From an uncultured Alphaproteobacteria bacterium (GTDB lineage: Bacteria; Pseudomonadota; Alphaproteobacteria; HIMB59; GCA-002718135), in the NCBI GenBank assembly GCA_902620425.1, contig CACNHX010000001.1:414903-478902 (forward strand): a DNA stretch of 64,000 nt, given 5' to 3'. Position 1 is the stretch's first letter; every line of letters starts with the position of its first letter. The translations under genes were made by a program, and so were the position numbers. The notes under the pieces are model-generated. The model had not been told where the DNA came from and did no database searches. It was given only the letters and a program-made list of their open reading frames with translations. Below, piece after piece: positions 3,170 through 19,618 of the stretch.

Positions 3170-3172
3170 AGT

Positions 3173-3203: not shown

Positions 3204-3214
3204 AGATATTTTGT

Positions 3215-4840: not shown

Positions 4841-5266
4841 ATGAAATATTTACACACAATGGTGAGGGTTGAGAATATTGATGCTTCGCTAGACTTTTAT
4901 TGTAACAAACTTGGATTAAAAGAAGTACGACGAGTTGAAAACGAAAAAGGTCGTTTTACCCTCATATTTTTAGGTGCTGAAAATAGCGATGAAAGAACGG
5001 GTCTTCTTGAATTAACATATAATTGGGATCCTGAAAAATATACTGGGGGCAGAAACTTTGGTCATCTAGCTTACAGTGTTAACAATATTTATGAAGTGTG
5101 TGAAAAATTAATGAATAACGGCGTCACAATTAATAGACCACCTCGTGATGGACATATGGCTTTTGTCCGCTCTCCCGATGGAATTTCCATTGAGATATTA
5201 CAAGAAGGGGAATCTTTACCAGAACAGGAACCATGGAAGTCTATGGAAAATTCTGGAAGTTGGTAA
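4841..5266 (+). CDS. gloA: Lactoylglutathione lyase (glyoxalase I, VOC family)
   Basis: MKYLHTMVRV, LELTYNW, FGHLAY, FVRSPDGISIE metal-binding motifs. Confidence 0.88.
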   Translation: MKYLHTMVRVENIDASLDFYCNKLGLKEVRRVENEKGRFTLIFLGAENSDERTGLLELTYNWDPEKYTGGRNFGHLAYSVNNIYEVCEKLMNNGVTINRPPRDGHMAFVRSPDGISIEILQEGESLPEQEPWKSMENSGSW

Positions 5267-6507: not shown

Positions 6508-7485
6508 TTAAATTTTTACTTTATAATATTTTTCGGGATTAGTGGCCAAAGCTATAACAGATGGAAGAACAAGTCTATAAAATTCAAATAAGCTTTTGAA
6601 AGGTTTAGGTAATTGATCGTCTATTTCTTTTCTTAATTTTTTAAGATTATAGGAAGGTATCATCGGAAACATATGATGTTCTAAATGATATTCCATATGC
6701 CAATAAAGAAAACTTAAAATTGGGTTTATTCTTACAGAATAAGTGCTTAAGCGGTGATCTTTTGTGTCAACTTTAGCAGCTAGATGTTGAGTCACATTAA
6801 CAGCAAACCAAATTGGCTTCCCAATATAAGTTGGTAAAATAATATAAATTATTGGTAAAAGAGAACCTATGTAAAAAGAATATGCAATGACTGATAACCA
6901 AATGAAGAGATATAATCTTGAGTTCCAAAGAATTTTTTTCTTTTCTTCTTTAGGTGCTGTTATATCAATAACTGGAGTGAATTTTCCAAAAGCATGTTTT
7001 AAAACTTCAAATTTAATTAATTTATGTGGGTATAATAAATCTGTAAGAGGTATAAAATTCAAAAAGAATGCAAATAATTCTATCGGTCTTGATACTTGAA
7101 TTTCGTGATCATAATCATCTTCTGTTTGTAATGTTTTTGAATGATGAAAAGTATGACTCCAACGCCATCTAAAACCTTCAAAGTCACACATGAAAGAACT
7201 GATGTGATAAAAAAATTCGTTTATCCAACGAGTCTTGAATGCAGTTCGATGAACAGTTTCATGCCAGTTTGCTACACTGAAAGCGTAAATTGTACCATAA
7301 ATAAAAAAGAATAGATATGTCCACCACGTACTTAAGGTAATGTATGCTAAATATCCTGAAATAAATAAAAATAAAAAATAAAAGAAGAAATGGATTAGTC
7401 CAGGCAGATCTCTTCTTTTACTTAAGACTTTTAATTTTTTTCTGTCGACTTCTGGTCTGTACCAATCATCGAGATTAATTTCCAT
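6508..7485 (-). CDS. Membrane diiron fatty-acid-desaturase-superfamily enzyme, MocD-like
   Basis: Three His boxes HETVH, HTFHH, HLEHH. Segments HETVHRTAFKTRW and WRWSHTFHH resemble rhizobial MocD (recalled, not searched). Confidence 0.8.
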   Translation of the reverse strand: MEINLDDWYRPEVDRKKLKVLSKRRDLPGLIHFFFYFLFLFISGYLAYITLSTWWTYLFFFIYGTIYAFSVANWHETVHRTAFKTRWINEFFYHISSFMCDFEGFRWRWSHTFHHSKTLQTEDDYDHEIQVSRPIELFAFFLNFIPLTDLLYPHKLIKFEVLKHAFGKFTPVIDITAPKEEKKKILWNSRLYLFIWLSVIAYSFYIGSLLPIIYIILPTYIGKPIWFAVNVTQHLAAKVDTKDHRLSTYSVRINPILSFLYWHMEYHLEHHMFPMIPSYNLKKLRKEIDDQLPKPFKSLFEFYRLVLPSVIALATNPEKYYKVKI

Positions 7486-7499
7486 GCTTGATAATTAAA

Positions 7500-8435
7500 T
7501 TAATTATCCCAACGATCTAACCATGACCCATCAACTGTGGAGTCAAATTGGTCTTTTTTTGAAGTCCCTCTAAATTTAGTGTGTTGTTCTTCATAACCTT
7601 TAAACCAAGAATCCCAATCAGCTGTATAGCTTGGGTCTTCTGATTTTCTCATTATGATTGGATCAACCAAACCAGTATGAAAACCAGCTTCATCTTTTGG
7701 ATTTTGAAATCGTAGGTCAACGCTCCACCTTACATCCTCAGATAAATTTTCAAGTGATCGATGAGGAACTAATTGATGTAAAAATAAAACTGAACCAGCC
7801 TTCATTTCACAAGTAACAACTTTCTCTTCTGGAATATCTTTGTCTTCAATAAATAAATACCAAGAATCTTTTACTGAACCATCTTTCTTTTCTAATTTAT
7901 GATTCAAAACTCTTTCAGGTCTATGTCCTCCAGGAACAACTTGCATGCATCCATTATTTTTATTTACATCTAGAAATGGAATCCACGCAGCAGGCTGAGT
8001 GGTTTTTTCTGCTCCATCTTTTAAATAAGCAGAATCTTGGTGCCATGGAACTGTCATCCTAGCTGTCTGAGGTGTTTTAGATCTAATATTCCAAACTGGA
8101 TGACCAGAAATATCTTTGCCAACCCAATTTTCAACCATATCTAAAAGTTTTTTTGATCCCCATAAGTTAGCGAGGGCTGGTTTTAATTCGCCTCTATGAT
8201 GAATTAAAACTGAAGAACCTTTAAAATCTCTTTCGAGAGCAGCTAGTCTTTTAAAAACATCTTTATCATCATGTTTGTTTGTAATTTTTCCAGCTTGAAA
8301 AGCTTTTTCTGCAAAATCATCAACAATTTCTTCAAATTCATTTAATATTGGATTTAAATCATCCATACTAAAAACATTTTCAACGATCGTATAACCTTCT
8401 TCGTTATATTGTTTTATTTGCGCATCACTAATCAT
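7500..8435 (-). CDS. Phytanoyl-CoA dioxygenase (PhyH) family Fe(II)/2OG oxygenase
   Basis: VPWHQD (HxD), WIPF, GCMQVVPGGH, HQLVPHRS...RWSVDLRF. Start refined to ATG 8435 behind a GGAGG SD. Confidence 0.85.
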   Translation of the reverse strand: MISDAQIKQYNEEGYTIVENVFSMDDLNPILNEFEEIVDDFAEKAFQAGKITNKHDDKDVFKRLAALERDFKGSSVLIHHRGELKPALANLWGSKKLLDMVENWVGKDISGHPVWNIRSKTPQTARMTVPWHQDSAYLKDGAEKTTQPAAWIPFLDVNKNNGCMQVVPGGHRPERVLNHKLEKKDGSVKDSWYLFIEDKDIPEEKVVTCEMKAGSVLFLHQLVPHRSLENLSEDVRWSVDLRFQNPKDEAGFHTGLVDPIIMRKSEDPSYTADWDSWFKGYEEQHTKFRGTSKKDQFDSTVDGSWLDRWDN

Positions 8436-8449
8436 AATTCCTCCCAAAA

Positions 8450-9187
8450 TTATCCATTCACTAATAAATCAGTTAGATGATCTATTGTTGTGTCTTTTTT
8501 ATCCAAATCAGCAATTTTTTCACCTCTTGCCATTACACATAAATGATCAGCAATTGGATATACATGACTCAAGTTGTGAGTAATAAATATTGATGTCACG
8601 CCTTGGCTTTTTAATCCTTCTACAAACCTTAGTACTTTATTTGTTTCTTTTACTGATAAGTGGTTTGTTGGTTCGTCTAATATTAAAACTTTTGACTTAA
8701 AATACATTGCTCTTGCAATCACAACACCTTGTCTTTCTCCTCCAGACAATTGGTTAACTGGTGTATCTGGAGATCGAAGATGCAGTTCAACATCTGTTAG
8801 TGCTTTCATCGCATCGTCCTGCATGGTTTTAGTTTTCATTAAACCAAAATTGCCAACATTATATTGAGTTTGTTCACGTCCAATAAAAATATTTCTTGCA
8901 ATAGACATTTCAGGGATCAAAGCTGAATACTGATAAATTGTTTCAATGCCTAAATTCATTGCTTCTTTTGTAGATTTAAATTTAACCTTATTACCTTCAA
9001 AATATATATGACCTGAATCAGGTTGATGTGCACCAGATAAAATTTTAATTAATGTTGATTTACCAGCACCATTGTCTCCAATAAGACCGACAACAGAGTC
9101 TTTTTTTATCTTTAAGCTTAAATCTTTTAAAGCATGAACTCCTGAATAGTATTTGTTTAAACCCTCACAAACTATTATATCTTCCAT
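8450..9187 (-). CDS. Sugar ABC transporter (CUT2) ATP-binding protein
   Basis: Walker A GDNGAGKST, signature LSGGERQ, Walker B LILDEPT. Confidence 0.93.
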   Translation of the reverse strand: MEDIIVCEGLNKYYSGVHALKDLSLKIKKDSVVGLIGDNGAGKSTLIKILSGAHQPDSGHIYFEGNKVKFKSTKEAMNLGIETIYQYSALIPEMSIARNIFIGREQTQYNVGNFGLMKTKTMQDDAMKALTDVELHLRSPDTPVNQLSGGERQGVVIARAMYFKSKVLILDEPTNHLSVKETNKVLRFVEGLKSQGVTSIFITHNLSHVYPIADHLCVMARGEKIADLDKKDTTIDHLTDLLVNG

Positions 9188-9189
9188 CT

Positions 9190-10170
9190 TTAATCCTTTG
9201 CCTTGTTTTGACCAATTCGTGTCGCTCTTCTACTTATATAAGTATTAAACACTACAGCTATGATAATTAAAGAACCTAACCCTGCTCTAAACCATTCAGC
9301 ATCTATTCTAGCCATAATGATACCACTTTCTAAAAACCTGATTAGTATTGCGCCAATAACGGCACCAAAAACTGTTCCGATACCTCCAAATAAACTGACA
9401 CCACCAATAACTGCTGCAGCAATTGACTCTAGTTCTAATAAGTATCCTTGAGATGGTAATGGTGCTTCCAATCTAAATGTTTGAATCATTCCAGCAAAGC
9501 CAGCTAAGAAACCACATAAGATGAAACAAAACATTTTAACGTTTCCAGTTTTTATTCCCATTGAAGATGCAGCGTTTTGATCTCCGCCAGTTGCATAGAT
9601 CCAGTTACCAACATTACTTCTGTGAAGCATAACACCTAAAACAACGGCAACTAAAAGAGCCCAGTACAAGGACGCTCTAAATAACTCAAATTGATAAACG
9701 AATAACTCATTTGGTAAAATATGAGGAAATGGTGGTGGAAATCCTGCAGTAGCAACAGTTGTAAGACTTCTAGCAATATAGAGCATTCCAAGAGTTGCGA
9801 TGAAAGAAGGAATACCAAATCTTAAGGTAATAAATCCATTAACAAAACCAACAATGATACCAATCATTAATCCTAGAAAAATAGCGAACCAAGGTGGTAT
9901 CCCTTGATGCACCATTTGTACAATAGTCATCGGGACTAATGCAAAAACAGAGCCTACAGATAAATCAAATTCACCTGAGATCATTAATATTGCAATCCCA
10001 ATAGCAACAATAATATATTCGGGTGTAATACCCATAACTATTCTTATATTTCTTGCATCTAAAAATCTTTCATTAGCAATATAAAATCCAATCATTATTG
10101 CTAGAAACATTAAGAAGGTTGCTACTTCTGGTCTTACTAATAAACTTCTAAGACTAAAATTTTTACTCAT
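9190..10170 (-). CDS. Sugar ABC transporter (CUT2) permease
   Basis: RbsC-like: GEFDLSVGS, IPSFIATLG, LESIAAAVIGGVSLFGG. Confidence 0.92.
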   Translation of the reverse strand: MSKNFSLRSLLVRPEVATFLMFLAIMIGFYIANERFLDARNIRIVMGITPEYIIVAIGIAILMISGEFDLSVGSVFALVPMTIVQMVHQGIPPWFAIFLGLMIGIIVGFVNGFITLRFGIPSFIATLGMLYIARSLTTVATAGFPPPFPHILPNELFVYQFELFRASLYWALLVAVVLGVMLHRSNVGNWIYATGGDQNAASSMGIKTGNVKMFCFILCGFLAGFAGMIQTFRLEAPLPSQGYLLELESIAAAVIGGVSLFGGIGTVFGAVIGAILIRFLESGIIMARIDAEWFRAGLGSLIIIAVVFNTYISRRATRIGQNKAKD

Positions 10171-10184
10171 ATTTTTTTTATTTT

Positions 10185-10218
10185 AAAAAAAACCAGGCTC
10201 TATTTAAAGAGCCTGGTT
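10185..10218 (-). terminator. Intrinsic terminator-like hairpin downstream of SBP gene
   Basis: 11-bp stem AACCAGGCTCT/AGAGCCTGGTT (10191-10218) with a T tract on the minus strand. Confidence 0.8.
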
Positions 10219-10225
10219 AAGATAT

Positions 10226-11191
10226 TTATCTAACTGACATTCCTTTGAATGATCTGATTGTTTCAACATCATCAGGACCAATCATAGCTTTACCAGTGTT
10301 GATATCTAGTGCACTTAAACCATACTTGTTCATTAAGTATAATTGGTGAACTGACATGTAACCTTGGTAGTATGGTTGTTGGTCAACTGTTAGTTGAACA
10401 TAACCTTTGTCCATTTCTTCGAAAACTACGTCAACTAAGTCAAAACCAGCAAGAAGTATTTCACCAGGTCCGTAACCTAAGTTTCTTACTGCTGCAGCTG
10501 CACCAGCTTCCCAGAAACCTACATCAAGATATGCAGTTGTATTTGGGTTAGCTTGAACATAAGCTGCCACTCTGTTTCCAACAGTTGAAAGATCTAGACC
10601 TGACTCGATTTTCTCATAAGTTACTTTTCTATCAGGGTTTGCTGCTTTGTAATCTTCCATGAAACGTGCAATACCGTTTCCTCTAGTGTATGCCCATGAT
10701 TGGTTCATATCTGCAACACCGATTAGAACGTGAATATCTCCATCAGGAAACATTTCAGAAAGATTAGCTGTTAATTCATAACCAGCTGCTTCTAAGTCTT
10801 GTCCAACATATGCTAGTCTGTTACTACCAGCAGCACCTTCTGGATCATCAGTATTAGCTGTAATTACTGGAATACCAGCAGCTAATGCTTCATCAACTGC
10901 AGCATCAAAGATAGTTGGGTTAGTAATTGTTGTTACGATACCATCAACACCTTGAGCTATTGAAGACTCTAAGTTTTGTAATTGCTCTTGTTGGTCTCCA
11001 TCACCTGAAAGAGTTAACATTTGGCAATCAGCATTAATTTGTGCACAAGCATCTTTAAAACCTTTGTGAACAGCTGCCCAGAAAGCATTGTTCGTATCAC
11101 TGTGCATTACGAAGTTAAATTTGTATTCTGCCTTCGCTGAAGTAGCAAAAAGCGCTACAGAGGCAAGAATAATTGAAGCAATTTTTTTCAT
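10226..11191 (-). CDS. Sugar ABC transporter (CUT2) periplasmic binding protein
   Basis: Sec signal peptide, RbsB/LacI-type fold motifs (FWAAVHKG, AGFDL, TVDQQPYYQGY), AGGAGG SD. Strand verified as minus (CAT at 11189-11191); the track label is wrong. Confidence 0.9.
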   Translation of the reverse strand: MKKIASIILASVALFATSAKAEYKFNFVMHSDTNNAFWAAVHKGFKDACAQINADCQMLTLSGDGDQQEQLQNLESSIAQGVDGIVTTITNPTIFDAAVDEALAAGIPVITANTDDPEGAAGSNRLAYVGQDLEAAGYELTANLSEMFPDGDIHVLIGVADMNQSWAYTRGNGIARFMEDYKAANPDRKVTYEKIESGLDLSTVGNRVAAYVQANPNTTAYLDVGFWEAGAAAAVRNLGYGPGEILLAGFDLVDVVFEEMDKGYVQLTVDQQPYYQGYMSVHQLYLMNKYGLSALDINTGKAMIGPDDVETIRSFKGMSVR

Positions 11192-11302
11192 GCATTCCTC
11201 CTATAAATAATATTTTCCTAGCAAGAATGGGTATGTAAAACAAGGAGAAATATTGGGAATTAGGCTGTAAAATTATCGCACTAATCAATAGCTAAGCAAA
11301 AT

Positions 11303-12454
11303 TTATATTTTTTTTAGGATTTGCCTTATGAAATCGTCATGCATGGGTTCAGGCTTCACACACGAAGAACGGAGCTCTACTTCCACTTTATAAATTGAAG
11401 AAATCATAGCACATTCAATTACATCTAAAACGTGAAGAGCAAGTTCTCCATTACACCTATGCATTCTATTATTTTCGATGGCGTCAATCATTTCAGCTAA
11501 CCCAATACCCCTGTAGTTTGCTTGTTCAGGCGCTTCATTACTTCTTCCACTATGGTTAACAATATTTGTTTTTCCAAGGGGTTTATCTTCGACGCTAATA
11601 TCTTTCCATTCAGATCCAAACTCACCAGATATGGAAACTGGACCACCAAACATATTTGGATCAGGAACTACTATTGAACCTTTCGTTCCATAAAGCTCCA
11701 TATGATTACGTTTATGATTTAAAACATCAAATGAAATGAAGCCTTGAATAATAGCTTTATTTTGAAACTCAATATTAAACATATAAGAAGTTGGAATTTC
11801 AACATTAAAAGTTTCTCCTTTTTTTGGACCAGCTTTGTATTCTCTTTTATCAGAAAATTTGGCTCCTCTTCCTCTTATATTTTTTACAGGACCTAGAAGA
11901 TTAACAAGTGTTGTGAAAAAATATGGACCCATGTCTATTACAGGTCCTCCTCCTTCTTGAAACCAAGACTCAGGACTTGGATGAAAATCTTGAACACCAG
12001 GAAAAGCAAAAATAAAATTACCGGTTAAAACTTGTCCAATATCATTGTTGTCAATTAAATTTCGTGTAAGTTGACCTCCTCCTCCTAAAAAAGTATCTGG
12101 TGCATTACCAATATAGAGACTATTTTTTTTTGCTAAATTTAATAATTCTTTTGCTTCATCAAACTTAACACTCATTGGTTTTTCGCAATAAACATGTTTG
12201 TTTGCCTCAAGAGCTCTTTTAGATATTTCATAATGAGCTTGGGGAATTGTGAGATTAAGAATGATGTCTACATTCTTGTCATTAAGTATTTCATCAACTG
12301 ATAAAGGAATAATATTATATTGATCAGCTGTTTTTTTAGCAGCATCTAAATTAATATCAGCACAAGCAACAAAATTTATATTATTAAAATATTCCTGAGC
12401 CCGGAAGTAGGTCTCTGCAATATTACCGCAACCAATCAGTCCAATATTTTTCAT
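11303..12454 (-). CDS. Gfo/Idh/MocA-family NAD(P)-dependent oxidoreductase
   Basis: GLIGCGNIA Rossmann motif, HVYCEKP, GGGPVIDMGPY. Strand verified as minus. Confidence 0.9.
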   Translation of the reverse strand: MKNIGLIGCGNIAETYFRAQEYFNNINFVACADINLDAAKKTADQYNIIPLSVDEILNDKNVDIILNLTIPQAHYEISKRALEANKHVYCEKPMSVKFDEAKELLNLAKKNSLYIGNAPDTFLGGGGQLTRNLIDNNDIGQVLTGNFIFAFPGVQDFHPSPESWFQEGGGPVIDMGPYFFTTLVNLLGPVKNIRGRGAKFSDKREYKAGPKKGETFNVEIPTSYMFNIEFQNKAIIQGFISFDVLNHKRNHMELYGTKGSIVVPDPNMFGGPVSISGEFGSEWKDISVEDKPLGKTNIVNHSGRSNEAPEQANYRGIGLAEMIDAIENNRMHRCNGELALHVLDVIECAMISSIYKVEVELRSSCVKPEPMHDDFIRQILKKI

Positions 12455-12493
12455 AATTTGTTTCTATAAATCAATTGTAAAAAATGGAATAGT

Positions 12494-12526
12494 AAAAAAA
12501 AAGGCCGTAAAAAATTACGGCCTTTT
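12494..12526 (-). terminator. Intrinsic terminator-like hairpin downstream of SBP gene
   Basis: 12-bp stem AAAAGGCCGTAA/TTACGGCCTTTT (12499-12526) with a T9 tract on the minus strand. Confidence 0.8.
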
Positions 12527-12546
12527 AAAAATAATTTTGCTTAGAC

Positions 12547-13464
12547 TTACATAAAGTCTGCAGCGTTTTCTTTAGTAACTAATACAGTTCCAGTATCAAT
12601 GTTATCTGGAATGCTCTCACCATTAGCTAATTTAAGTGCATTTTCTACACCCATGTATCCCATGTTGTATGAGAATTGAGCAATAGTTGCTGACATTTCA
12701 CCAGCCATTACACTTGCAGCAGCATCAGGGTTAGCATCAAATCCAACAACGACAACATCATCTAGCATATCAGCATTTTTTAATGCTTGGATAGCACCTA
12801 GACCCATATTATCGTTAGAAGCAAAGATTGCTTTTAGATTTGGGTTACCAGTGATGATATCTTCAGTTACTGACATACCTTGTGCAGTATCCCAATTAGC
12901 TGGAAGTTCAGCAACAATGTTCATGCCACATGCTTCAAGACCTTTGTGTGATCCTTCAGCTCTGTGTTGACCAGTAGTTTGTGTGATCATTCCTTGAAGG
13001 ATTGCAACATCAGAACCACTTGGAACATTATCACAAATGTATTGAGCAGCTAAAGCAGCACCATTGATATTGTTTGTACCAATGAAAGTTACACCTTCAT
13101 TAATTCCATTAGTATCAATGTATACAACTGGAACACCTGAAGCCATTGCATCATCAAGAATTGGTGCAACTGCGTTAGGGTCAGTTGGTGCAATCGCTAT
13201 ACCGTCTACACCTTTAGCAATTTGGTCTTCAATTTGTGCTACCTGAGCCATAACATCACTCTCTTGTGGTGGTGAAAGGATAATAAGGTTTACACCTAAT
13301 TCTTCAGCAGCATCTTTAGCACCAGCTTCAACTGAAGCCCAAAAAGGGTTTCCAGCACCTGGTCCTTTAGTACTTAGCATAATTGTTTTTGCATGTGAGC
13401 CTGCTAAAAGACTACCTGAAAAAAACAATACAGAAGTAGTAATTATAGAAATAAAAAATTTCAT
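12547..13464 (-). CDS. Sugar ABC transporter (CUT2) periplasmic binding protein, RbsB-like
   Basis: Signal peptide, NPFW, IGTNN, AIFASNDNMGLGA, VVGFDA, ATIAQ. Strand verified as minus. Confidence 0.92.
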   Translation of the reverse strand: MKFFISIITTSVLFFSGSLLAGSHAKTIMLSTKGPGAGNPFWASVEAGAKDAAEELGVNLIILSPPQESDVMAQVAQIEDQIAKGVDGIAIAPTDPNAVAPILDDAMASGVPVVYIDTNGINEGVTFIGTNNINGAALAAQYICDNVPSGSDVAILQGMITQTTGQHRAEGSHKGLEACGMNIVAELPANWDTAQGMSVTEDIITGNPNLKAIFASNDNMGLGAIQALKNADMLDDVVVVGFDANPDAAASVMAGEMSATIAQFSYNMGYMGVENALKLANGESIPDNIDTGTVLVTKENAADFM

Positions 13465-13553
13465 TTTTCCTCCTAAAATTTTTTTTTAATCATTAATCAA
13501 AAATGAAATTCTAATCAAGTGACTGTTTGTCAGAAAGTGATTATTTTTTGATA

Positions 13554-14561
13554 TTATGTTCTGGTTGCAAGTTGTCTTCTTAGAACATCAATATAAACAG
13601 CCAAAATAATAATTGACCCAATAAGAACTTGTTGCCAAAAAACACTGACATTCATTAGATTTAGACCATTTCGGAGTATACCCATAATCATGACTCCAGC
13701 AAATACACCTAAAACAGTTCCTCTACCCCCAAAGAAGCTTGCTCCACCTATAATTACCGCTGCAATCGCATCTAGTTCAGATTGTAAACCGGCATTTGGA
13801 TAAGCGGAATTTGTTCTTCCAGCTAAAATTAAACCTCCAATACCAGCCAAGAAACCACAAAGGGTGTAAACTACGATTAAAATACGATCGACATTTATAC
13901 CTGCTGCCCTAGCTGCTCCTGGGTTGCCTCCAATCGCATAAATCCATTTACCTATTCTTGTATGATTTAAAAATATCCAAAAGATAAAGAATATAACAAT
14001 CATTAAAATTAAACTTGTGGGTATATACTCTCTAGCGCCTTCTCCAAAAATTACATCTAGTTTAATTTTACCATTTCCGATAACTCTAATCTGTTCAGCA
14101 AAACCTGTTATTGGCACACCTCCAGAAATAAGGTTTCCAATTCCTCTAAATATATACAGCGTGCCCAATGTCATAATGAATGGATGAGGCATGCGAAGTA
14201 AGGTAATGCCAATACCATTAAACATACCACACAAAAATCCAATTGCTGGCGCAACTAACATGACAACGTACCAAGGCATTCCTGCCTTCGAAGCAATAGC
14301 GAGTCCCATTAATGATAACATAATAATTGAACCGACTGATAGATCTATACCTGCAGTTACAATGACCATAAAGACACCAAGTGCTAACATAGACTGCCAA
14401 GAAACTTGTTTAAAAATATTTGTTACATTTCTCCATGATAAAAAAACATCAGGTTGCAACAAATGCAAAACAGCAATCATTATTAGGATAAGTAATAAGA
14501 TTCCATATCTTTCAAAAAAAGGAATAAGTCTGACAAATAAAGATTCTTGACTCTTATCCAT
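13554..14561 (-). CDS. Sugar ABC transporter (CUT2) permease
   Basis: AGIDLSVGS, PFIMTLG, YAIGGNPGAARAAGI, ELDAIAAVIIGGASFFGG. Start refined to ATG 14561, which overlaps the upstream TAA. Confidence 0.92.
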   Translation of the reverse strand: MDKSQESLFVRLIPFFERYGILLLILIMIAVLHLLQPDVFLSWRNVTNIFKQVSWQSMLALGVFMVIVTAGIDLSVGSIIMLSLMGLAIASKAGMPWYVVMLVAPAIGFLCGMFNGIGITLLRMPHPFIMTLGTLYIFRGIGNLISGGVPITGFAEQIRVIGNGKIKLDVIFGEGAREYIPTSLILMIVIFFIFWIFLNHTRIGKWIYAIGGNPGAARAAGINVDRILIVVYTLCGFLAGIGGLILAGRTNSAYPNAGLQSELDAIAAVIIGGASFFGGRGTVLGVFAGVMIMGILRNGLNLMNVSVFWQQVLIGSIIILAVYIDVLRRQLATRT

Positions 14562-15307
14562 TAATCTTTTTTCCCCATGATCCATCCAATCACTTCGTCT
14601 CTTGAAGTGTTTTTTAATTCTGATTCAGCGAAGTTTGTTCCTTGAAAAAGTGCCATTACGCGATCACAAACAGTAAAAATATCATCCATTCGGTGACTAA
14701 TTACTATTACACTAACACCTAACTTTTTAAGATTTAAAATTAAATCTAAAACTTTCCCAACTTCCTTAACAGCAAGTGCAGCTGTCGGTTCATCCATCAA
14801 TACAATTTTTGCATTAAAAGCTGTAGCTCTAGCAATTGCAACTGCTTGTCTTTGTCCACCTGATAATTCTTCAACCTTTTGATCAGCACTTTTTACATTT
14901 ATTTTTAGTTTTGCAAGATGCTCTTCGGTTAACTGTTTTCTTTTTTTATGATCTAAAAAATTAAAAGGGCCGACTTTTCTTGTTGGCTCTCTTCCTAAAA
15001 AAATATTATCACCGATAGGGAGATTCCCAGCTAGCGCTAAATCTTGATAAACCATTTCTAAGCCCAAATTTTGTGAGTCTCTGGGACTATTTAAAGTTAC
15101 TTTTTCCTTATCAAAAAAAAGTGAACCTTCACTTGGCTTGTATAATCCTGATAAAACTTTCATTAATGTAGATTTCCCAGCACCGTTATCGCCGACGACA
15201 CCAAGAACTTCACCTTTATTTAAATGAAGATCTACATTTTGAAGAGCTGTGATAGTACCAAAAAATTTTGAAACTGATTTAGCTTCCAGTACTAAATTAT
15301 CTGACAT
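14561..15307 (-). CDS. Sugar ABC transporter (CUT2) ATP-binding protein
   Basis: GDNGAGKST, LSGGQRQ, LMDEPTAAL. Confidence 0.93.
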   Translation of the reverse strand: MSDNLVLEAKSVSKFFGTITALQNVDLHLNKGEVLGVVGDNGAGKSTLMKVLSGLYKPSEGSLFFDKEKVTLNSPRDSQNLGLEMVYQDLALAGNLPIGDNIFLGREPTRKVGPFNFLDHKKRKQLTEEHLAKLKINVKSADQKVEELSGGQRQAVAIARATAFNAKIVLMDEPTAALAVKEVGKVLDLILNLKKLGVSVIVISHRMDDIFTVCDRVMALFQGTNFAESELKNTSRDEVIGWIMGKKD

Positions 15308-15328
15308 AAGTGTGTTTTTAAATAAATT

Positions 15329-16357
15329 TTAATTAATATCAACTGGTTTTGATCGTAAATATTTAACAGTTTCTCTCTCAGCTTTTTTACATAATTTAGG
15401 AGGCAGGCCTTTTGAAATAAGTTTTAAATCTTGAATTACTAATTCACCCATCTCTTTAAATGCACTGTTTAATGCGCCAGCCCTATGCGGAGAAAAAATT
15501 ACATTTTTGAGTTTTCTTAATTTATGATTTTTAGGAAATGGTTCTTTTGGAAAAACATCAATGGCAGCAAACACATTTCTATTTTTTAAAAAATTAAAAA
15601 AATCATCAAAATTTATTATGGCTGCTCTACTCATTAAGACAAACACTGATCCATCTTTTATTAATTTAAGTTTAGAGCTATTAATCATAGATTCATTAGA
15701 GGAAGTAATGGATGCAAGTACATAAATGATGTCAGCATTTTTGAGTAATGAATTTAAACTGGTTGGCTTAACATCCAATTTTTCAATTTCTTTATTGGGA
15801 ATCCAAGGATCATAGGCAATGATATTGTTAGAGAATGCTTTTAGTATAGGAGTAAGTGATTTGGCTAAATCTCCAAAACCAATTAAACCGAATGTTTTAT
15901 TTTTTAATAAAAAATTATTCTGACTAATTGCACCACCATATTTTTCTTTTTTTAAAATAAAGTCTGAGTGAGCAATATGGATACTTCTGGCTATAGATAA
16001 AGTAAGGCCCATTGCCATTTCAGCAACAGGTTGAGCAAACACAGGCGATGTTGCTAAAACGTGTATTCCATTTCTAAAACAATAATCATAATCCATATTG
16101 TCCATAAAATTACTCTCTACATTAAATATTGCTTTAAGTTTTGCAGATTTAGAAATTAAAGATGAAGGTAAATTGGGTTGCCCAAATATATAATCTGCCT
16201 TTGGTAGATTTTTTTCATAAAAATTATTTTTATTTTTTTTAGGAGCAGTAATGAGTTTAAAATTTTTTTTTAAGTATATTAAATTTTCTTTAGAAAAAAG
16301 TAGATCCATTGTTCTTGGATATGGATCTATTAAAATTATAGGCTTGTTTTGACTCAT
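15329..16357 (-). CDS. D-isomer-specific 2-hydroxyacid dehydrogenase family protein
   Basis: GLIGFGDLA, AYDPW, LMSRAAII, AIDVFPKEP, FSPHRAG catalytic motif. Confidence 0.85.
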   Translation of the reverse strand: MSQNKPIILIDPYPRTMDLLFSKENLIYLKKNFKLITAPKKNKNNFYEKNLPKADYIFGQPNLPSSLISKSAKLKAIFNVESNFMDNMDYDYCFRNGIHVLATSPVFAQPVAEMAMGLTLSIARSIHIAHSDFILKKEKYGGAISQNNFLLKNKTFGLIGFGDLAKSLTPILKAFSNNIIAYDPWIPNKEIEKLDVKPTSLNSLLKNADIIYVLASITSSNESMINSSKLKLIKDGSVFVLMSRAAIINFDDFFNFLKNRNVFAAIDVFPKEPFPKNHKLRKLKNVIFSPHRAGALNSAFKEMGELVIQDLKLISKGLPPKLCKKAERETVKYLRSKPVDIN

Positions 16358-16391
16358 ACAATTTTTAAACTTTAGAAAAATAAATTTATTT

Positions 16392-18236
16392 TTATACGCC
16401 TTTACGTTGTTTATTTTTTCCTTCTAAAAATTCATTAAGAGCTGATTTCTTACCTTCGGTATTATCTACTTGAAGTGTTGGGCTTTCCCAAAAAGCTGTT
16501 CCTTCTAACCATTCATATCCATCTGTTTTCATAGAAATTACGTATGTTTTGTCTGATTCTTTTGCTCTTTTAAAAGCTGCCTCCAACTCTGAAATAGATT
16601 TAACAGTCTCACCGTTTGCCCCCATACTTTTTGCGTGAGCTTCAAAATCTACAAACTGTACATTTGTCGCTCTTGCAGCATTCAGATTGCAAAGATATTC
16701 ATTTCCACCTTTTGCTAGTTGCAATCTATTAATAACCATGTGACCACCATTATCACAAACAACTATAATTAATTTTTTATCATATAAAACTGAACTGTAG
16801 ATGTCGCTATTTTGTAAAAGGTATGAACCATCACCTACAAATACAATTACATCTTGTTCAGGTTTTGCCATTTTGATTCCGAGTGCACCTGATATTTCAT
16901 AACTCATGCAACTAAATCCCCATTCAGTTTCAAAAGTATTTAGTTCTTTAGGTTTCCATATTTGAACTACTTCACCTACTAATCCTCCAGCTGCGGTTAC
17001 AACAATATCTGATGAGTCTGAGTTTCTATAGACTGCACCTACAGCATGAGCATAGGATGGTAATTCTTGATTTGTTGGTCCACTTTCTTTGGCAACATAT
17101 TCATCCCATTTATTTCTTTCCTCAATTGAACGCTGGTACCAATTATCTGGTGCTTTCCAATCTCCTAATGCCTTTGATAATTCTTGAAGTCCAATTTTTG
17201 CATCGCTTACAACAGGAGTAGCGCGATGTTTTGTAGTATCAAATCGTGAAGTATTTATTGATACAAGTTGAAAATTTTCGTTTTCAAAATTAGTCCAAGA
17301 GCCAGTTGTAAAGTCTCCTAACTTTGTTCCCACAGCTAGTGCTAAATCTGTATCAGTAGCAAGATTATTAGATGAGCCTTCCCCTAAGCATCCAATTGCA
17401 CTTATGTAATAAGGATCATCTTTATTCATACAACCAATACCCATCACAGTTGCTGTTACAGGAATATTATGTTTTTTTGCAAAAGCGGAAATCTCCTCTT
17501 CTGCTTCTGAATATAAAACACCTCCGCCTGAAATAATAATTGGTTGTTTAGATTGTTTTAATTTATCAGCTGCCTTTTGTATTTGATTTGGATCAGGATG
17601 AATTCTTCTAATTTCATGAATTTTTTCTTCAAAAAAGATTTCAGGATAATCATACGCTTCTCCTTGAACATCTTGAGACATAGAAATTACTGCTGGGCCA
17701 CAGTCTGCAGGATCAAGCATTACATTAATTGCCTGAGGTAAAGATGTTAAAATTTGTTCAGGTCTAGTAATTCGATCAAAATATCTTGATACAGATTTAA
17801 ATGAATCATTTTGAGTTTCTGAGGGAGAATTAAAATGTTCAACTTGTTGTAAAACAGGATCTGGAAAACGACTAGAAAATGTATCACCTGGTAAAAGTAA
17901 AATTGGAAGTCTATTACTTAAAGCAACTGCAGCAGCTGTAACCATATTAGTAGAACCAGGTCCTACAGATGAAGTTGCAACAAATATTTGTTGTCTTCTT
18001 TTGGCACGAGCATATGCAATACCTGTTAGTGCCATATTTTGTTCATGATGACCTCTGTATCCAGGAAGTTCATTTTGATATTCTTCCATCGCTTGTCCGA
18101 TACAAGCAACATTACCATGGCCATAAATACCAAAAGCACCTGGAAATAGTGGTTCTTTTTTTCCATTAATTAAAATTTTTTGCATAGTTAAATATTTAAT
18201 TAATGCATGTGAACATGACATTCTAACTGTTTTCAT
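16392..18236 (-). CDS. iolD: 3D-(3,5/4)-trihydroxycyclohexane-1,2-dione hydrolase (ThDP-dependent)
   Basis: GIYGHGNV, HHEQNMA, SSVGPGSTNMVT, RFPDPVLQQVE, EWGFSCMSYE, GDGSYL ThDP motif. Start refined to ATG 18236. Confidence 0.88.
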   Translation of the reverse strand: MKTVRMSCSHALIKYLTMQKILINGKKEPLFPGAFGIYGHGNVACIGQAMEEYQNELPGYRGHHEQNMALTGIAYARAKRRQQIFVATSSVGPGSTNMVTAAAVALSNRLPILLLPGDTFSSRFPDPVLQQVEHFNSPSETQNDSFKSVSRYFDRITRPEQILTSLPQAINVMLDPADCGPAVISMSQDVQGEAYDYPEIFFEEKIHEIRRIHPDPNQIQKAADKLKQSKQPIIISGGGVLYSEAEEEISAFAKKHNIPVTATVMGIGCMNKDDPYYISAIGCLGEGSSNNLATDTDLALAVGTKLGDFTTGSWTNFENENFQLVSINTSRFDTTKHRATPVVSDAKIGLQELSKALGDWKAPDNWYQRSIEERNKWDEYVAKESGPTNQELPSYAHAVGAVYRNSDSSDIVVTAAGGLVGEVVQIWKPKELNTFETEWGFSCMSYEISGALGIKMAKPEQDVIVFVGDGSYLLQNSDIYSSVLYDKKLIIVVCDNGGHMVINRLQLAKGGNEYLCNLNAARATNVQFVDFEAHAKSMGANGETVKSISELEAAFKRAKESDKTYVISMKTDGYEWLEGTAFWESPTLQVDNTEGKKSALNEFLEGKNKQRKGV

Positions 18237-18335
18237 GTGTTCCTTTCCCAAAAAAAATAGATACTATTATAATAAAAAAATAATTTAAAGAGTTAAACAA
18301 TTTATTTTTCTAATATTTTAGAATATAAATTATTC

Positions 18336-19301
18336 ATGAAAGTTGGGGTTGTTGGTGAAATTCATCCAAGTGGATATGAGATATTTGATAAAAATAATAT
18401 TGAGTACTTTGTCACTAATAATATTGATGAAGATCATCTAATAGAAAAATTACGAGATGTGGATGGTATTGTTGTTAGAACGGCAGAACTAAATAAAAAT
18501 ATTCTCTCAAAAGCAAAGAACCTAAAAATTGTTGCAAGACACGGTGTTGGCTATGACAATGTGGATACTGATTATTTAAATAATAATAAGATAGCTATGG
18601 CCATTACTGGAACAGCAAATGCGACCAGCGTAGCTGAACATGTAATGACAATGATGCTTTGTTTAACAAAAAATATTTTTGAATCAGATAGATTAGTGAA
18701 ATTAGGTAAATTTCAAGAAAAGGGCAATCTACCCAACTACTTTGAACTCTATAATAAAAACATTTTAATTCTTGGTTTTGGTCGAATAGGAAAAGCTTTA
18801 GCAAAAAGATGTAGTGGGTTTGAAATGGAAGTTTATGTACATGATCCATTTATTTCGGATGAAGAAATAAAAAATCATAAATGTATTCCAATCAATAAAG
18901 AAGAAGGCTTAAAAATTGCTGATTATATAAGTATCCATTTACCTTTAAATGAAGAAACTAAAAATATGATTTCTTTTGATCAGTTTGAAACCTTTAAATC
19001 TAATTTGATTTTAATTAATACCGCAAGAGGTGGTATAATTAATGAAGATGCCTTATATGACGCTTTAAAAAATAAAAAAATTTTTGGAGCTGGTGTTGAT
19101 GTATTTGAAAAAGAGCCGCCAACAGAAAATCATAAACTATTTTCTTTAAGCAATACTTTGTTGACGCCACATAATGCTGCTTTAACTCTAGAATGCAGAA
19201 AAAGGATGTCTGTAGAGTCTTGTGAAAATGTTTTTGATTTTTTAACTAAAAGTAAAAATTTAAATAAAAATAATATTATAAATCTTAAGATTATAAGTTA
19301 G
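18336..19301 (+). CDS. D-3-phosphoglycerate dehydrogenase-like 2-hydroxyacid dehydrogenase (no ACT domain)
   Basis: RHGVGYDNVD, GFGRIG, INTARGGII, DVFEKEP, LTPHNA. Confidence 0.85.
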   Translation: MKVGVVGEIHPSGYEIFDKNNIEYFVTNNIDEDHLIEKLRDVDGIVVRTAELNKNILSKAKNLKIVARHGVGYDNVDTDYLNNNKIAMAITGTANATSVAEHVMTMMLCLTKNIFESDRLVKLGKFQEKGNLPNYFELYNKNILILGFGRIGKALAKRCSGFEMEVYVHDPFISDEEIKNHKCIPINKEEGLKIADYISIHLPLNEETKNMISFDQFETFKSNLILINTARGGIINEDALYDALKNKKIFGAGVDVFEKEPPTENHKLFSLSNTLLTPHNAALTLECRKRMSVESCENVFDFLTKSKNLNKNNIINLKIIS

Positions 19302-19618
19302 ATATTTAAGTAAATATTTCCATCCTCTTCAGAGATGTCAAAGATCTTAAGACCATCTAATTCAGGATCACTAATACAATCACCCGAAACAATACTATAA
19401 GTCTTACCACAACCAACACACTCTAACTCTTCTCCTTCAATTTCAGATTCACTCAAAGGTGCTTTCTCCTCACAATTACAGTTTCCCTGTGTGCAAAAAA
19501 ATCCTGGCTCTAAATGATAAACCGCATAATTAACATCGTCATGTTCAAAACTTTCTACAGTTCCAATTTCGATATCATCAGTTTCACCAACTAGTATTGG
19601 ATCAATTTCATCATTCAT
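19298..19618 (-). CDS. Rieske-fold (MocE-like) ferredoxin with His-to-Cys substituted metal motif
   Basis: Acidic 106-aa protein with Rieske ferredoxin layout. CxH...CxxH is replaced by CNC...CVGC. Strand verified as minus. Confidence 0.72.
   Translation of the reverse strand: MNDEIDPILVGETDDIEIGTVESFEHDDVNYAVYHLEPGFFCTQGNCNCEEKAPLSESEIEGEELECVGCGKTYSIVSGDCISDPELDGLKIFDISEEDGNIYLNI

What the first reader, a model, noticed from the sequence alone, without database searches (positions are those of the whole stretch)
6508..19618. Rhizopine-catabolism-like (MocD/MocE/MocA + IolD) gene set outside the rhizobial context
Seen: MocD-like diiron enzyme, MocE-like small ferredoxin, Gfo/Idh/MocA dehydrogenase, iolD and two CUT2 transporters within 13 kb. 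Established: rhizobial MocDEF is proposed to demethylate 3-O-methyl-scyllo-inosamine before inositol catabolism. Inference: catabolism of a methylated cyclitol, possibly an algal osmolyte. No MocF-like reductase is in the window.
Basis: partly seen in the sequence, partly recalled or inferred. Interest (0 to 1): 0.65.

Follow-up and report, generated by a model that had tools for sequence, protein, structure and literature searches.

The report
MocD-type oxygenase sugar cassette beside IolD
This stretch of a small-genome ocean bacterium is two separate gene units side by side rather than one rhizopine-like pathway: a core inositol gene (iolD) with a sugar importer, and a swappable importer cassette with a true relative of the rhizobial MocD oxygenase, which probably removes methyl groups from an imported sugar or cyclitol.

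Summary
All the genes listed are present, but only part of the rhizopine analogy holds.

**What holds**
- The desaturase-like protein (6508-7485) belongs to the MocD family. It is 34.5% identical (E 6e-67) to MocD of a genuine S. meliloti mocCABRDEF locus, against 22-27% (E 1e-11 to 1e-13) to lipid-type desaturases. All three His boxes are intact.
- IolD is genuine (770 bits, cut-off 715).
- The genome also encodes IolG, IolE, IolB, IolC and IolJ, scattered.

**What does not hold**
- The "MocE-like" protein has both Rieske His ligands replaced by Cys. It also stays beside IolD in a relative with no MocD-like gene.
- The Gfo/Idh/MocA gene is not the genome's best MocA homologue.
- IolD is a near-universal core gene. 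It borders a variable island and is separated from the MocD cassette by a strong terminator-like hairpin.

**Wider picture**
- The genome has six MocD paralogues but only one canonical MocE/MocF pair, about 62 kb from the window copy.
- The conserved cassette is GFO, CUT2 importer, PhyH dioxygenase and MocD.

**Most likely function:** oxidative O-demethylation or hydroxylation of an imported methylated carbohydrate, with electrons supplied in trans. The substrate is unknown; a methyl-cyclitol is possible but not favoured.

The parts
4841..5266 (+). Glyoxalase/VOC-family protein (141 aa), divergent from the cassette. It marks the far boundary of the variable island.
   Evidence: Pfam PF00903. 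Present beside the MocD orthologue in 60 of 64 related loci, and also beside other MocD paralogues in L018 and L092.
5268..6500 (-). Gig2-like/DUF1479 2OG-Fe(II) oxygenase (410 aa), last gene of the cassette. It is an accessory addition.
   Evidence: PF07350, 404 bits. Closest solved chains are uncharacterised DUF1479 proteins and E. coli YbiU. Present in only 6 of 64 related loci.
6508..7485 (-). MocD-family membrane di-iron oxygenase, paralogue 'p5' (325 aa).
   Evidence: PF00487. 34.5% identity and E 6e-67 to S. meliloti BL225C MocD, against E 1e-11 to 1e-13 to lipid-type desaturases. His boxes H75/H79, H111/H114/H115 and H267/H270/H271, plus H234, are invariant in 28 homologues.
7500..8447 (-). 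PhyH-type 2OG-Fe(II) dioxygenase (315 aa), the constant partner of p5.
   Evidence: PF05721, 104.9 bits. Adjacent to the p5 orthologue in 62 of 64 loci. Only distant solved relatives: PhyH, PtlH, EvdO2, SnoK.
8450..11191 (-). CUT2 ABC importer no. 2: SBP2 (10226-11191), permease (9190-10170) and ATPase (8450-9187).
   Evidence: Peripla_BP_4, BPD_transp_2 and ABC_tran. The best curated family for SBP2 is the rhizopine SBP, at only 98.5 bits against a cut-off of 420. Conserved with p5 in 54-59 of 64 loci.
10191..10218 (-). Terminator-like hairpin (11-bp stem plus T-run) just after SBP2. Likely an intra-operon attenuator.
11303..12454 (-). Gfo/Idh/MocA-family oxidoreductase (383 aa), first gene of the MocD cassette.
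   Evidence: PF01408 and PF22725. Far below every NCBIfam cut-off (IolG model 58.9 of 355 bits, N-terminal part only). Closest solved chains are 3evn and the C-glycoside 3-oxidoreductase DgpA. Not the best MocA homologue in the genome. Present in 54 of 64 loci.
12499..12526 (-). Strong terminator-like hairpin (12-bp stem plus T5) between SBP1 and the GFO gene. It separates the iolD unit from the MocD unit.
12547..15307 (-). CUT2 ABC importer no. 1: ATPase (14561-15307), permease (13554-14585) and SBP1 (12547-13464).
   Evidence: Pfam. SBP1 is RbsB-like (177.8 bits, cut-off 337). It is also the genome's best homologue of S. meliloti MocB (32.5%, E 4e-38). Present in 38-40 of 64 loci, nearly always together with 2HADH_a and IolD (37 of 64 each).
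15329..16357 (-). D-2-hydroxyacid dehydrogenase-family protein (2HADH_a), downstream of iolD.
   Evidence: PF02826. Follows iolD in two of the four relatives examined that lack p5 (L103, L105).
16392..18251 (-). IolD (3D-(3,5/4)-trihydroxycyclohexane-1,2-dione acylhydrolase), single copy, a core gene.
   Evidence: TIGR04377, 770.2 bits, above the 715 cut-off. Single copy in the genome. Present in 38 of 46 family genomes.
18336..19301 (+). D-2-hydroxyacid dehydrogenase (2HADH_b), divergent from iolD. Part of the conserved backbone.
   Evidence: PF02826 and PF00389. Synteny in L103-L107.
19298..19618 (-). All-Cys Rieske-fold protein (106 aa).
   Evidence: Rieske 26 bits; MocE family 34.3 bits against a cut-off of 136. 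CxC...CxxC replaces CxH...CxxH, and this is conserved in orthologues. It stays next to iolD in a genome without any MocD-like gene.

Best explanation
The 13-kb stretch is a junction between two units, not one pathway.

Unit A is the core unit, transcribed from 18251 down to 12547. It contains iolD, a 2-hydroxyacid dehydrogenase and CUT2 importer no. 1. It ends in a strong terminator-like hairpin. It belongs to a conserved backbone: SDR, FAH, FMN-dehydrogenase, all-Cys Rieske protein, 2HADH_b, IolD. IolD serves the genome's complete but scattered inositol pathway.

Unit B is an accessory cassette, transcribed from 12454 down to 5268. Its order is Gfo/Idh/MocA oxidoreductase, CUT2 importer no. 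2, PhyH-type 2OG dioxygenase, MocD-family membrane di-iron oxygenase, and in this lineage a DUF1479 oxygenase. It is one of six MocD-containing loci in the genome, most of them in sugar-uptake or sugar-catabolic gene neighbourhoods.

Inferred mechanism:
- The importer brings in a modified monosaccharide or cyclitol, most likely O-methylated.
- MocD p5 receives electrons along NAD(P)H to MocF to MocE. These are encoded once, about 62 kb away, and are probably shared by all six paralogues.
- MocD p5 hydroxylates the methyl ether, which collapses to the free hydroxyl plus formaldehyde.
- The PhyH enzyme performs a second oxidative unmasking step.
- The GFO enzyme then oxidises the freed sugar for entry into central pathways.

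What is shown: family membership, an intact metal site, cassette conservation, partners in trans, and independence from iolD. What is inferred: the chemistry and the substrate class.
For: 1. MocD family membership.
- Full-length 34.5% identity, E 6e-67, to MocD of S. meliloti BL225C.
- In the near-identical (99.9% over the mocD region) S. meliloti RCAM1115 locus, that gene lies between mocR and mocE-mocF in a mocC, mocA, mocB, mocR, D, E, F, panB-like, purU locus.
- In the plasmid collection, hits fall from E<=1e-26 for MocD-like genes sitting beside MocE and MocF straight to E>=7e-5 for annotated desaturases.
- The His boxes are invariant.

2. Electron partners.
- The genome has six MocD paralogues but one canonical MocE (58% to the R. 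leguminosarum MocE, 57% to the S. meliloti one) and one MocF.
- These lie in a mocD, mocF, mocE, panB-like, mocD, FA_hydroxylase cluster at C1:355.9-360.4 kb.
- Canonical MocE is present in 27 of 29 family genomes that carry the p5 orthologue.
- Relatives in the 50%-identity library are fused to Rieske, Rieske plus FNR, or rubredoxin plus reductase domains.

3. Cassette conservation in 64 related loci.
- PhyH 62, ATPase 59, permease 55, SBP2 54, GFO 54, Gig2 6.

4. Independence from iolD.
- Terminator-like hairpin at 12499-12526.
- IolD is in 38 of 46 genomes, including 11 without p5 and one (G021) without any MocD-like gene.
- The backbone SDR, FAH, FMNdh, RieskeCys, 2HADH_b, IolD is conserved in p5-less genomes, where a different CUT2 system lies downstream of iolD.

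5. One-carbon and sugar context.
- PanB-like and PurU genes follow mocF in the genuine moc locus.
- The genome has three PanB-like copies, two of them beside other MocD paralogues.
- Other paralogues sit with CUT2 importers, PhyH, GFO, aldehyde dehydrogenase, sulfatase, lactonase and IlvD-type dehydratase.
- The MocDEF demethylation model is cited from Bahar et al. 1998 in PMC13434037.
Against: - No MocD-family enzyme has been characterised biochemically. The demethylation role rests on rhizobial genetics.
- There is no PanB-like gene or formaldehyde-handling gene in this cassette.
- The electron donors are about 62 kb away, and sharing them among paralogues is inferred only from copy number and co-occurrence.
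- Two p5-bearing genomes lack a detectable canonical MocE, though they are only 86-88% complete.
- The terminator is a pattern match, and read-through from iolD cannot be excluded.
- The tree with distant outgroups is unresolved at its base. The AU test merely fails to reject a MocD-like clade (p = 0.21).
- IolD lies within about 10 kb of p5 in at least 37 of 64 loci, so some functional link to cyclitol catabolism is not excluded.
Confidence: 0.55

Rival explanations
1. The whole stretch is one functional pathway for a methylated cyclitol such as an O-methyl-inositol. It is imported by one or both CUT2 systems, demethylated by the MocD-like enzyme, oxidised by the GFO enzyme, and fed through IolD into the inositol pathway.
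For: - The only genetically defined MocD substrate is a methyl-cyclitol (PMC13434037).
- IolD is genuine, and the genome has IolG, IolE, IolB, IolC and IolJ.
- IolD lies within reach of p5 in at least 37 of 64 loci, and also near other MocD paralogues in L018 and L092.
- The best curated family for SBP2 is the rhizopine SBP (98.5 bits), and SBP1 is the best MocB homologue.
- All twelve genes from iolD to the Gig2-like gene point the same way, with gaps of 111 bp or less.
Against: - IolD is a core gene and is present in genomes without p5 or any MocD-like gene.
- A terminator-like hairpin lies between the two units.
- The cassette has no IolE/MocC, IolG/MocA-type or MocR gene.
- The SBP2 match is far below its cut-off (98.5 of 420 bits).
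- The 77% orthologue is followed by aldose epimerase, xylulokinase and XylA2.
- The 'MocE-like' gene is not a MocE.
Confidence: 0.2
2. The MocD-like enzyme and its PhyH partner perform a different oxidation on an imported carbohydrate. Candidates are C-H hydroxylation of a deoxy or C-methyl sugar or cyclitol, desaturation, or cleavage of another ether such as a lactyl, glyceryl or carboxyethyl ether. O-demethylation is not the reaction.
For: - The FA_desaturase superfamily performs hydroxylation, desaturation and other oxidations. The nearest curated families include an arginine hydroxylase (GntB) and a desaturase (DesB).
- This cassette has no PanB-like or C1-handling gene, unlike the clusters around paralogues p2 and p3.
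- A deoxy-sugar-type SDR, FAH, FMN-dehydrogenase operon is nearby.
- Three different oxygenases in a row suggest multi-step oxidative tailoring.
Against: - The only functional model for the family is demethylation.
- PanB-like and PurU genes are attached to mocDEF in the genuine locus.
- The 77% orthologue's cassette does carry a PanB-like gene.
Confidence: 0.2
3. The protein is an ordinary lipid desaturase or hydroxylase, or a carotenoid ketolase/hydroxylase, that happens to lie in a sugar island.
For: Its only Pfam hit is FA_desaturase. Weak NCBIfam hit to the Delta(10) desaturase DesB (45.6 bits against a cut-off of 500).
Against: - E-values to annotated desaturases are about 50 orders of magnitude worse than to MocD.
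- It is fixed next to an ABC sugar importer and a PhyH gene in 62 of 64 relatives.
- There are six paralogues in a 1.54-Mb genome, most of them in carbohydrate-uptake or carbohydrate-catabolic contexts.
Confidence: 0.03

Closest known systems
[quoted passage not shown]
   Same: - The window protein is a full-length homologue of MocD (34.5% identity, E 6e-67) with the same His boxes.
- The genome has a canonical MocE (57-58% identical to the rhizobial proteins), a MocF (32%) and a PanB-like gene, as found next to mocF in S. meliloti.
- There is a CUT2 binding protein related to MocB.
   Different: - The E and F components are not in cis but about 62 kb away, and there is one pair for six MocD paralogues.
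- There is no MocR regulator and no MocC or MocA orthologue in the cassette.
- The constant partner is a PhyH-type 2OG dioxygenase.
- The host is a streamlined marine planktonic alphaproteobacterium, not a rhizobium.
- The substrate is unknown.
Cytochrome P450 6-O-methyl-D-galactose demethylase with ferredoxin and ferredoxin reductase in marine Bacteroidota (PMC6292453, PMC9400963)
   Same: A three-component, O2- and NAD(P)H-dependent oxidative demethylation of an algal methyl sugar that yields formaldehyde. This is the only characterised marine carbohydrate O-demethylase and is functionally analogous to what is proposed here.
   Different: - The catalytic protein is unrelated: a soluble haem P450 rather than a membrane di-iron enzyme.
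- It sits in polysaccharide utilisation loci of particle-associated Bacteroidota, not in ABC-importer cassettes of oligotrophs.
AlkB and XylM membrane di-iron hydroxylases with rubredoxin or ferredoxin-type reductases
   Same: - Same Pfam superfamily (FA_desaturase) and the same His-box di-iron site.
- Dependence on a small FeS protein plus an NAD(P)H reductase.
- Some MocD-like relatives are fused to rubredoxin plus rubredoxin reductase.
   Different: - Their substrates are hydrocarbons.
- No detectable sequence match from the window protein to any solved AlkB or SCD1 chain.
- The genomic context here is carbohydrate uptake.
mocDEF-xylA2 cluster of woody-host Pseudomonas syringae (reviewed in PMC13434037)
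   Same: A MocD-type oxygenase genetically linked to a XylA2-type sugar isomerase. The same link is seen in the 77%-identical marine orthologue locus L018.
   Different: - It is uncharacterised too.
- It carries its own E and F genes in cis.
- The window's own locus lacks the isomerase and kinase genes.
Canonical inositol catabolic operon (iolABCDEFGHIJ of Bacillus subtilis; iolCDEB of rhizobia)
   Same: IolD passes the equivalog cut-off, and the genome encodes IolG, IolE, IolB, IolC and an IolJ-type aldolase.
   Different: - The genes are scattered over at least four loci on two contigs.
- iolD is flanked by 2-hydroxyacid dehydrogenases and an all-Cys Rieske-fold protein instead of other iol genes.

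Membership tests
MocD family (membrane di-iron oxygenase of mocDEF) | Full-length sequence similarity to MocD from a genuine mocCABRDEF locus, clearly above similarity to lipid-type desaturases | tested here: met
   34.5% identity over 322 aa, E 6e-67, to S. meliloti BL225C MocD. By contrast 22-27% and E 1e-11 to 1e-13 to annotated desaturases. There is a clear E-value gap in the plasmid collection.
MocD family (membrane di-iron oxygenase of mocDEF) | Three His boxes (HxxxH, HxxHH, HxxHH) of the di-iron site | tested here: met
   H75/H79, H111/H114/H115 and H267/H270/H271 are present and invariant in 28 homologues.
MocD family (membrane di-iron oxygenase of mocDEF) | Monophyly with MocD to the exclusion of desaturases in a tree | tested here: inconclusive
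   The base of the tree is unresolved because outgroup branches are very long (2.4-5.2). The AU test does not reject the MocD-like clade (p = 0.21).
MocD family (membrane di-iron oxygenase of mocDEF) | Rieske ferredoxin (MocE) and FAD reductase (MocF) genes adjacent in cis | tested here: not met
   None in the window. The canonical pair lies at C1:357.8-359.4 kb, about 62 kb away.
MocD family (membrane di-iron oxygenase of mocDEF) | Oxidative O-demethylation activity | not testable with these tools
   Needs an enzyme assay.
MocE family 2Fe-2S ferredoxin (TIGR02377), for the 19298-19618 protein | Score above the family cut-off | tested here: not met
   34.3 bits against a cut-off of 136.15.
MocE family 2Fe-2S ferredoxin (TIGR02377), for the 19298-19618 protein | Rieske ligands CxH...CxxH | tested here: not met
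   C-N-C and C-V-G-C in the window protein. All-Cys is conserved in four orthologues. The genome's true MocE has CTH...CPMH.
MocE family 2Fe-2S ferredoxin (TIGR02377), for the 19298-19618 protein | Co-occurrence with MocD | tested here: not met
   It is retained next to iolD in G021, which has no MocD-like gene.
MocA (rhizopine-locus dehydrogenase), for the 11303-12454 protein | Best homologue of MocA in the genome | tested here: not met
   S. meliloti MocA hits IolG (C1:140 kb) best. The window GFO is not among the top six hits.
IolD (TIGR04377 equivalog) | Score above the curated cut-off over the full length | tested here: met
   770.2 bits against 715, model positions 1-616.
Complete inositol catabolic pathway in the genome | IolG, IolE, IolD, IolB, IolC and an IolJ-type aldolase present | tested here: met
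   - IolG 384.9 bits (cut-off 355).
- IolE 376.7 bits (cut-off 290).
- IolC 301.9 bits (cut-off 300).
- IolB-like 169 bits, below its cut-off of 205, but KduI/IolB Pfam scores 253 bits.
- A class-II aldolase lies next to IolB.

Rhizopine (moc) catabolic locus as a whole | MocR-type regulator and MocC (IolE-like) within the locus | tested here: not met
   No MocR-like gene, only 21-22% aminotransferase-type hits elsewhere. The only IolE lies at C1:51.9 kb.
CUT2 ABC sugar importer | Peripla_BP_4 binding protein, BPD_transp_2 permease and ABC_tran ATPase | tested here: met
   Two complete sets.

The most novel reading that the evidence does not exclude
MocD-family proteins may be a large, unrecognised class of membrane di-iron carbohydrate O-demethylases or ether oxygenases in streamlined ocean bacteria.
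- In this lineage one MocE/MocF electron-transfer pair would act as a shared hub.
- That hub would serve up to seven substrate-specific MocD paralogues, each plugged into its own importer cassette.
- This would let very small genomes harvest the methylated sugars and cyclitols of marine dissolved organic matter.
- The window cassette (GFO, CUT2, PhyH, MocD) would be one such plug-in, inserted at a hot spot next to iolD.
Probability: 0.35. Interest if true: 0.75.

Novelty: new variant of a known kind. Interest (0 to 1): 0.5.

Why it matters
Methylated sugars are a recognised component of algal polysaccharides. The only characterised marine demethylase for them is a P450 from Bacteroidota.

If MocD-type enzymes do this job in small-genome planktonic alphaproteobacteria, a whole enzyme class is currently mislabelled 'fatty acid desaturase'. 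These bacteria carry up to seven copies per genome of roughly 1.2-1.6 Mb, and 43 of 46 family genomes have at least one copy. It would also mean an abundant oligotroph group has an unappreciated carbon source.

For annotation, the finding shows that co-location of 'Moc-like' names within 13 kb can be positional. Here an island lies next to a core iolD gene, and the genes need not share a pathway.

Tried and rejected
- **Sequence search against solved structures:** the MocD-like protein gave no hit even at E<=10.
- **Structure prediction and fold search:** the AlphaFold2 model was of moderate quality (pLDDT 71.6, pTM 0.72). Foldseek against the PDB gave only two marginal matches, to subunits of algal Ycf2/Orf2971-FtsHi complexes (TM 0.50-0.57), and no SCD1 or AlkB. 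This was uninformative.
- **Tree with three plasmid-borne desaturases as outgroups:** the base was unresolved because of very long branches. I rely instead on pairwise scores and an AU test that does not reject the clade.
- **Ligand assignment from solved structures:** SBP1, SBP2 and the GFO enzyme have only distant relatives (ribose-, allose- and glucose-binding proteins; DgpA). No substrate call is justified.
- **Literature search:** I found no biochemical characterisation of MocD, no description of the marine paralogue expansion, and no report of inositol catabolism in this group.
- **Considered and rejected:** that the 19298-19618 protein is the dedicated ferredoxin of the window MocD, and that the absence of MocF means a non-functional system.

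Full report
**Observation**

The window is C1:414,903-478,902 of a 1.54-Mb, roughly 31% GC genome in 19 contigs. Its closest named relatives are marine single-cell genomes. They are labelled 'uncultured Alphaproteobacteria' or 'Pelagibacteraceae bacterium', so this is a SAR11-type planktonic lineage.

From 22418 down to 5268 nearly all genes are on the minus strand. In order they are:
- SDR, FAH-family hydrolase, FMN-dependent dehydrogenase
- a 106-aa Rieske-fold protein (19298-19618)
- a plus-strand 2-hydroxyacid dehydrogenase
- IolD (16392-18251; TIGR04377, 770 bits, cut-off 715)
- a second 2-hydroxyacid dehydrogenase
- CUT2 importer no. 1 (ATPase, permease, SBP1)
- a Gfo/Idh/MocA oxidoreductase (11303-12454)
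- CUT2 importer no. 2 (SBP2, permease, ATPase)
- a PhyH-type 2OG dioxygenase (7500-8447)
- the FA_desaturase-family protein (6508-7485)
- a Gig2-like/DUF1479 oxygenase (5268-6500)

So the listed genes exist.

**Is the desaturase-like protein a MocD?**

- In the plasmid collection its full-length hits (30-41% identity, E<=1e-26) are overwhelmingly rhizobial.
- In the two hit loci inspected (R. leguminosarum, Aminobacter), the hit gene is followed by a Rieske-type ferredoxin (annotated MocE-family in R. leguminosarum) and an FAD-dependent oxidoreductase, with a LacI-family regulator next to the triple.
- The next hits, annotated desaturases, start at E 7e-5.
- I located a genuine rhizopine locus in S. 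meliloti RCAM1115. Its order is iolE-like mocC, Gfo/Idh/MocA (mocA), SBP (mocB), PLP-dependent MocR, mocD, Rieske (mocE), FAD oxidoreductase (mocF), then a PanB-like gene and purU. In that strain mocD is frameshifted.
- The intact 361-aa MocD is present in strain BL225C.
- The window protein is 34.5% identical to it over 322 aa (E 6e-67). It is 22-27% identical (E 1e-11 to 1e-13) to three annotated desaturases from Ralstonia, Leptolyngbya and Bacillus records.
- All three His boxes and the extra conserved His are present and invariant in 28 homologues.
- A maximum-likelihood tree could not resolve the base because the outgroup branches are very long. The AU test does not reject a MocD-like clade (p = 0.21).
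- I treat family membership as established by the pairwise and context evidence, not by the tree.

**Partners and paralogues**

- tblastn with rhizobial MocD, MocE and MocF shows six MocD-like genes in this small genome. There is one canonical MocE (58% to the R. leguminosarum protein, 57% to the S. meliloti one; ligands CTH...CPMH) and one MocF (32%).
- MocE and MocF lie at C1:355.9-360.4 kb in a cluster: mocD, mocF, mocE, PanB-like, mocD, FA_hydroxylase, lactonase, IlvD-type dehydratase. A CUT2 importer sits beside it.
- That is about 62 kb from the window copy.
- The other paralogues sit with PhyH, PanB-like, GFO, aldehyde dehydrogenase, sulfatase and CUT2 genes.
- In the 50%-identity library the family has 101 clusters at E<=1e-30. 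Members include fusions to Rieske, Rieske plus FNR, and rubredoxin plus rubredoxin reductase. A small FeS carrier plus a reductase is therefore a family trait.

**The other 'Moc' labels**

- The 19298-19618 protein scores 34 bits against the MocE cut-off of 136. It has Cys at both His-ligand positions (C-N-C, C-V-G-C), and this pattern is conserved in orthologues.
- It stays beside iolD in nearly all family genomes, including G021, which has no MocD-like gene. It is not the ferredoxin of the window MocD.
- S. meliloti MocA finds IolG (C1:140 kb) as its best homologue, not the window GFO.
- MocB finds SBP1 best (32.5%).
- MocC finds the distant IolE.
- No MocR-type gene exists.

**Inositol pathway**

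- IolE (C1:51.9 kb, 377 bits), IolG (C1:140 kb, 385 bits) and IolC (302 bits) all pass their cut-offs.
- An IolB-like protein (169 bits against a cut-off of 205, but 253 bits to Pfam KduI/IolB) and a class-II aldolase follow IolC on contig 7.
- The three-gene IolC, IolB-like, aldolase run is preceded by a glutathione-dependent formaldehyde-activating enzyme homologue.
- IolD is single-copy.

**Is iolD functionally tied to the MocD gene?**

In 64 related loci with a p5 orthologue at 75% identity or more, the neighbours found were:

| Neighbour | Loci (of 64) |
|---|---|
| PhyH | 62 |
| Glyoxalase | 60 |
| Importer no. 2 | 54-59 |
| GFO | 54 |
| Importer no. 1 | 38-40 |
| 2HADH_a | 37 |
| IolD | 37 |
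| Gig2-like | 6 |

- The count for IolD is limited by the 10-kb flank.
- Importer no. 1, 2HADH_a and IolD occur together as a block.
- Across the 46 family genomes that are at least 80% complete, 43 have MocD-like genes (0-7 copies) and 29 have the p5 orthologue.
- In the same set 38 have IolD. These include 11 without p5. The two p5-bearing genomes without IolD are only 81-83% complete.
- In p5-less genomes the backbone SDR, FAH, FMNdh, all-Cys Rieske, 2HADH_b, IolD is intact. 2HADH_a follows iolD in two of the four examined, and a different CUT2 system lies downstream.
- In other genomes extra MocD paralogues are inserted between iolD and p5.
- In the window, a 12-bp-stem hairpin with a T-run lies exactly between SBP1 and the GFO gene (12499-12526). 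A second hairpin follows SBP2.
- Together this indicates a core iolD unit bordering a variable island of importer and oxygenase cassettes. The island's other edge is the glyoxalase gene.

**Substrate clues**

- SBP1 is ribose-binding-protein-like.
- SBP2 is distant from everything. Its best curated family is the rhizopine SBP at 98.5 of 420 bits, and its best solved relative is a Thermotoga sugar-binding protein.
- The nearest solved relatives of the GFO enzyme include the C-glycoside 3-oxidoreductase DgpA.
- A 77%-identical orthologue locus (L018) has an IolD-like gene, lactonase, RbsD/FucU, GFO, glyoxalase, the same importer, a PanB-like gene, a second MocD, PhyH and p5. These are followed by aldose epimerase, an FGGY kinase and a XylA2-type isomerase.
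- The same mocDEF-xylA2 link is reported for woody-host Pseudomonas syringae (PMC13434037).
- These clues point at least as much to methylated aldoses as to cyclitols.

**Mechanism proposed**

1. CUT2 importer no. 2 imports a modified carbohydrate.
2. MocD p5 takes electrons along NAD(P)H to MocF to MocE, supplied in trans, and hydroxylates an O-methyl group. The hemiacetal collapses to the free hydroxyl and formaldehyde.
3. The PhyH enzyme carries out a second oxidative unmasking.
4. The GFO enzyme oxidises the product.

The demethylation chemistry is inferred from two things. One is the rhizobial model (Bahar et al. 1998, as cited in PMC13434037). The other is the PanB-like and PurU genes attached to mocDEF in the genuine locus. 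It has not been shown for any family member.

**Comparison, novelty and limits**

- The system is a variant of MocDEF, with the catalytic subunit detached from its redox partners, multiplied, and paired with a 2OG dioxygenase in ABC-importer cassettes of a marine oligotroph.
- The only characterised marine sugar O-demethylase is an unrelated P450 (PMC6292453).
- I found no paper describing the marine MocD expansion.
- Earlier notes of this scan describe similar MocD cassettes in other genomes. I used them as leads and re-tested the relevant points here.
- A cultured relative, Ca. Pelagibacter sp. Uisw_094, carries the mocD, mocF, mocE, PanB-like, mocD cluster but not p5. This makes part of the model testable.

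Noticed in passing
window 19298-19618: The Rieske-fold protein has both His ligands replaced by Cys (CxC...CxxC). This is conserved in four orthologues, and the gene is fixed next to iolD and the 2-hydroxyacid dehydrogenase even in a genome lacking MocD-like genes. Its redox partner is unknown.
   Followed up: partly
L098 (S. meliloti RCAM1115 p_1) 12536-14274; also L001 14630-15445: In the genuine rhizopine locus, mocF is followed by a PanB-like ('3-methyl-2-oxobutanoate hydroxymethyltransferase') gene and purU (formyl-THF deformylase). This hints that the C1 unit released by MocDEF is passed to folate. The window genome has three PanB-like copies: C2:102150-102977, C1:356972-357799 and C1:109412-110236.
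   Followed up: partly
L098 9768-10852: mocD of S. meliloti RCAM1115 is split by a frameshift into 108-aa and 288-aa ORFs. The 99.9%-identical BL225C copy (L102:9129-10214) is intact.
   Followed up: yes
genome contig C7:549-3555 (L016): iolC, an iolB-like gene and a class-II aldolase form an operon. It is directly preceded by a glutathione-dependent formaldehyde-activating enzyme (GFA) homologue.
   Followed up: no
whole genome: There are eighteen Gfo/Idh/MocA-family genes in a 1.54-Mb genome, only one of which passes the IolG cut-off.
   Followed up: no
P0180, P0240, P0131, P0125, P0139: MocD-like relatives occur as single-chain fusions with Rieske, Rieske plus FNR-type reductase, or rubredoxin plus rubredoxin reductase domains.
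   Followed up: partly
L018 11014-14900: In a 77%-identical orthologue locus the PhyH-MocD pair is followed by aldose 1-epimerase, an FGGY kinase and a XylA2-type isomerase. This parallels the mocDEF-xylA2 linkage reported in Pseudomonas syringae.
   Followed up: partly
window 19679-22418: The SDR, FAH-family hydrolase and FMN-dependent dehydrogenase genes overlap tightly. They are part of the conserved backbone next to iolD in all relatives examined. This looks like the end of a non-phosphorylative deoxy-sugar route.
   Followed up: no
window 1407-4747: A CUT1-type binding protein with a TAT signal, permease genes and a sulfatase-like ORF lie just beyond the glyoxalase boundary of the island. 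They are present in about half of the related loci.
   Followed up: no
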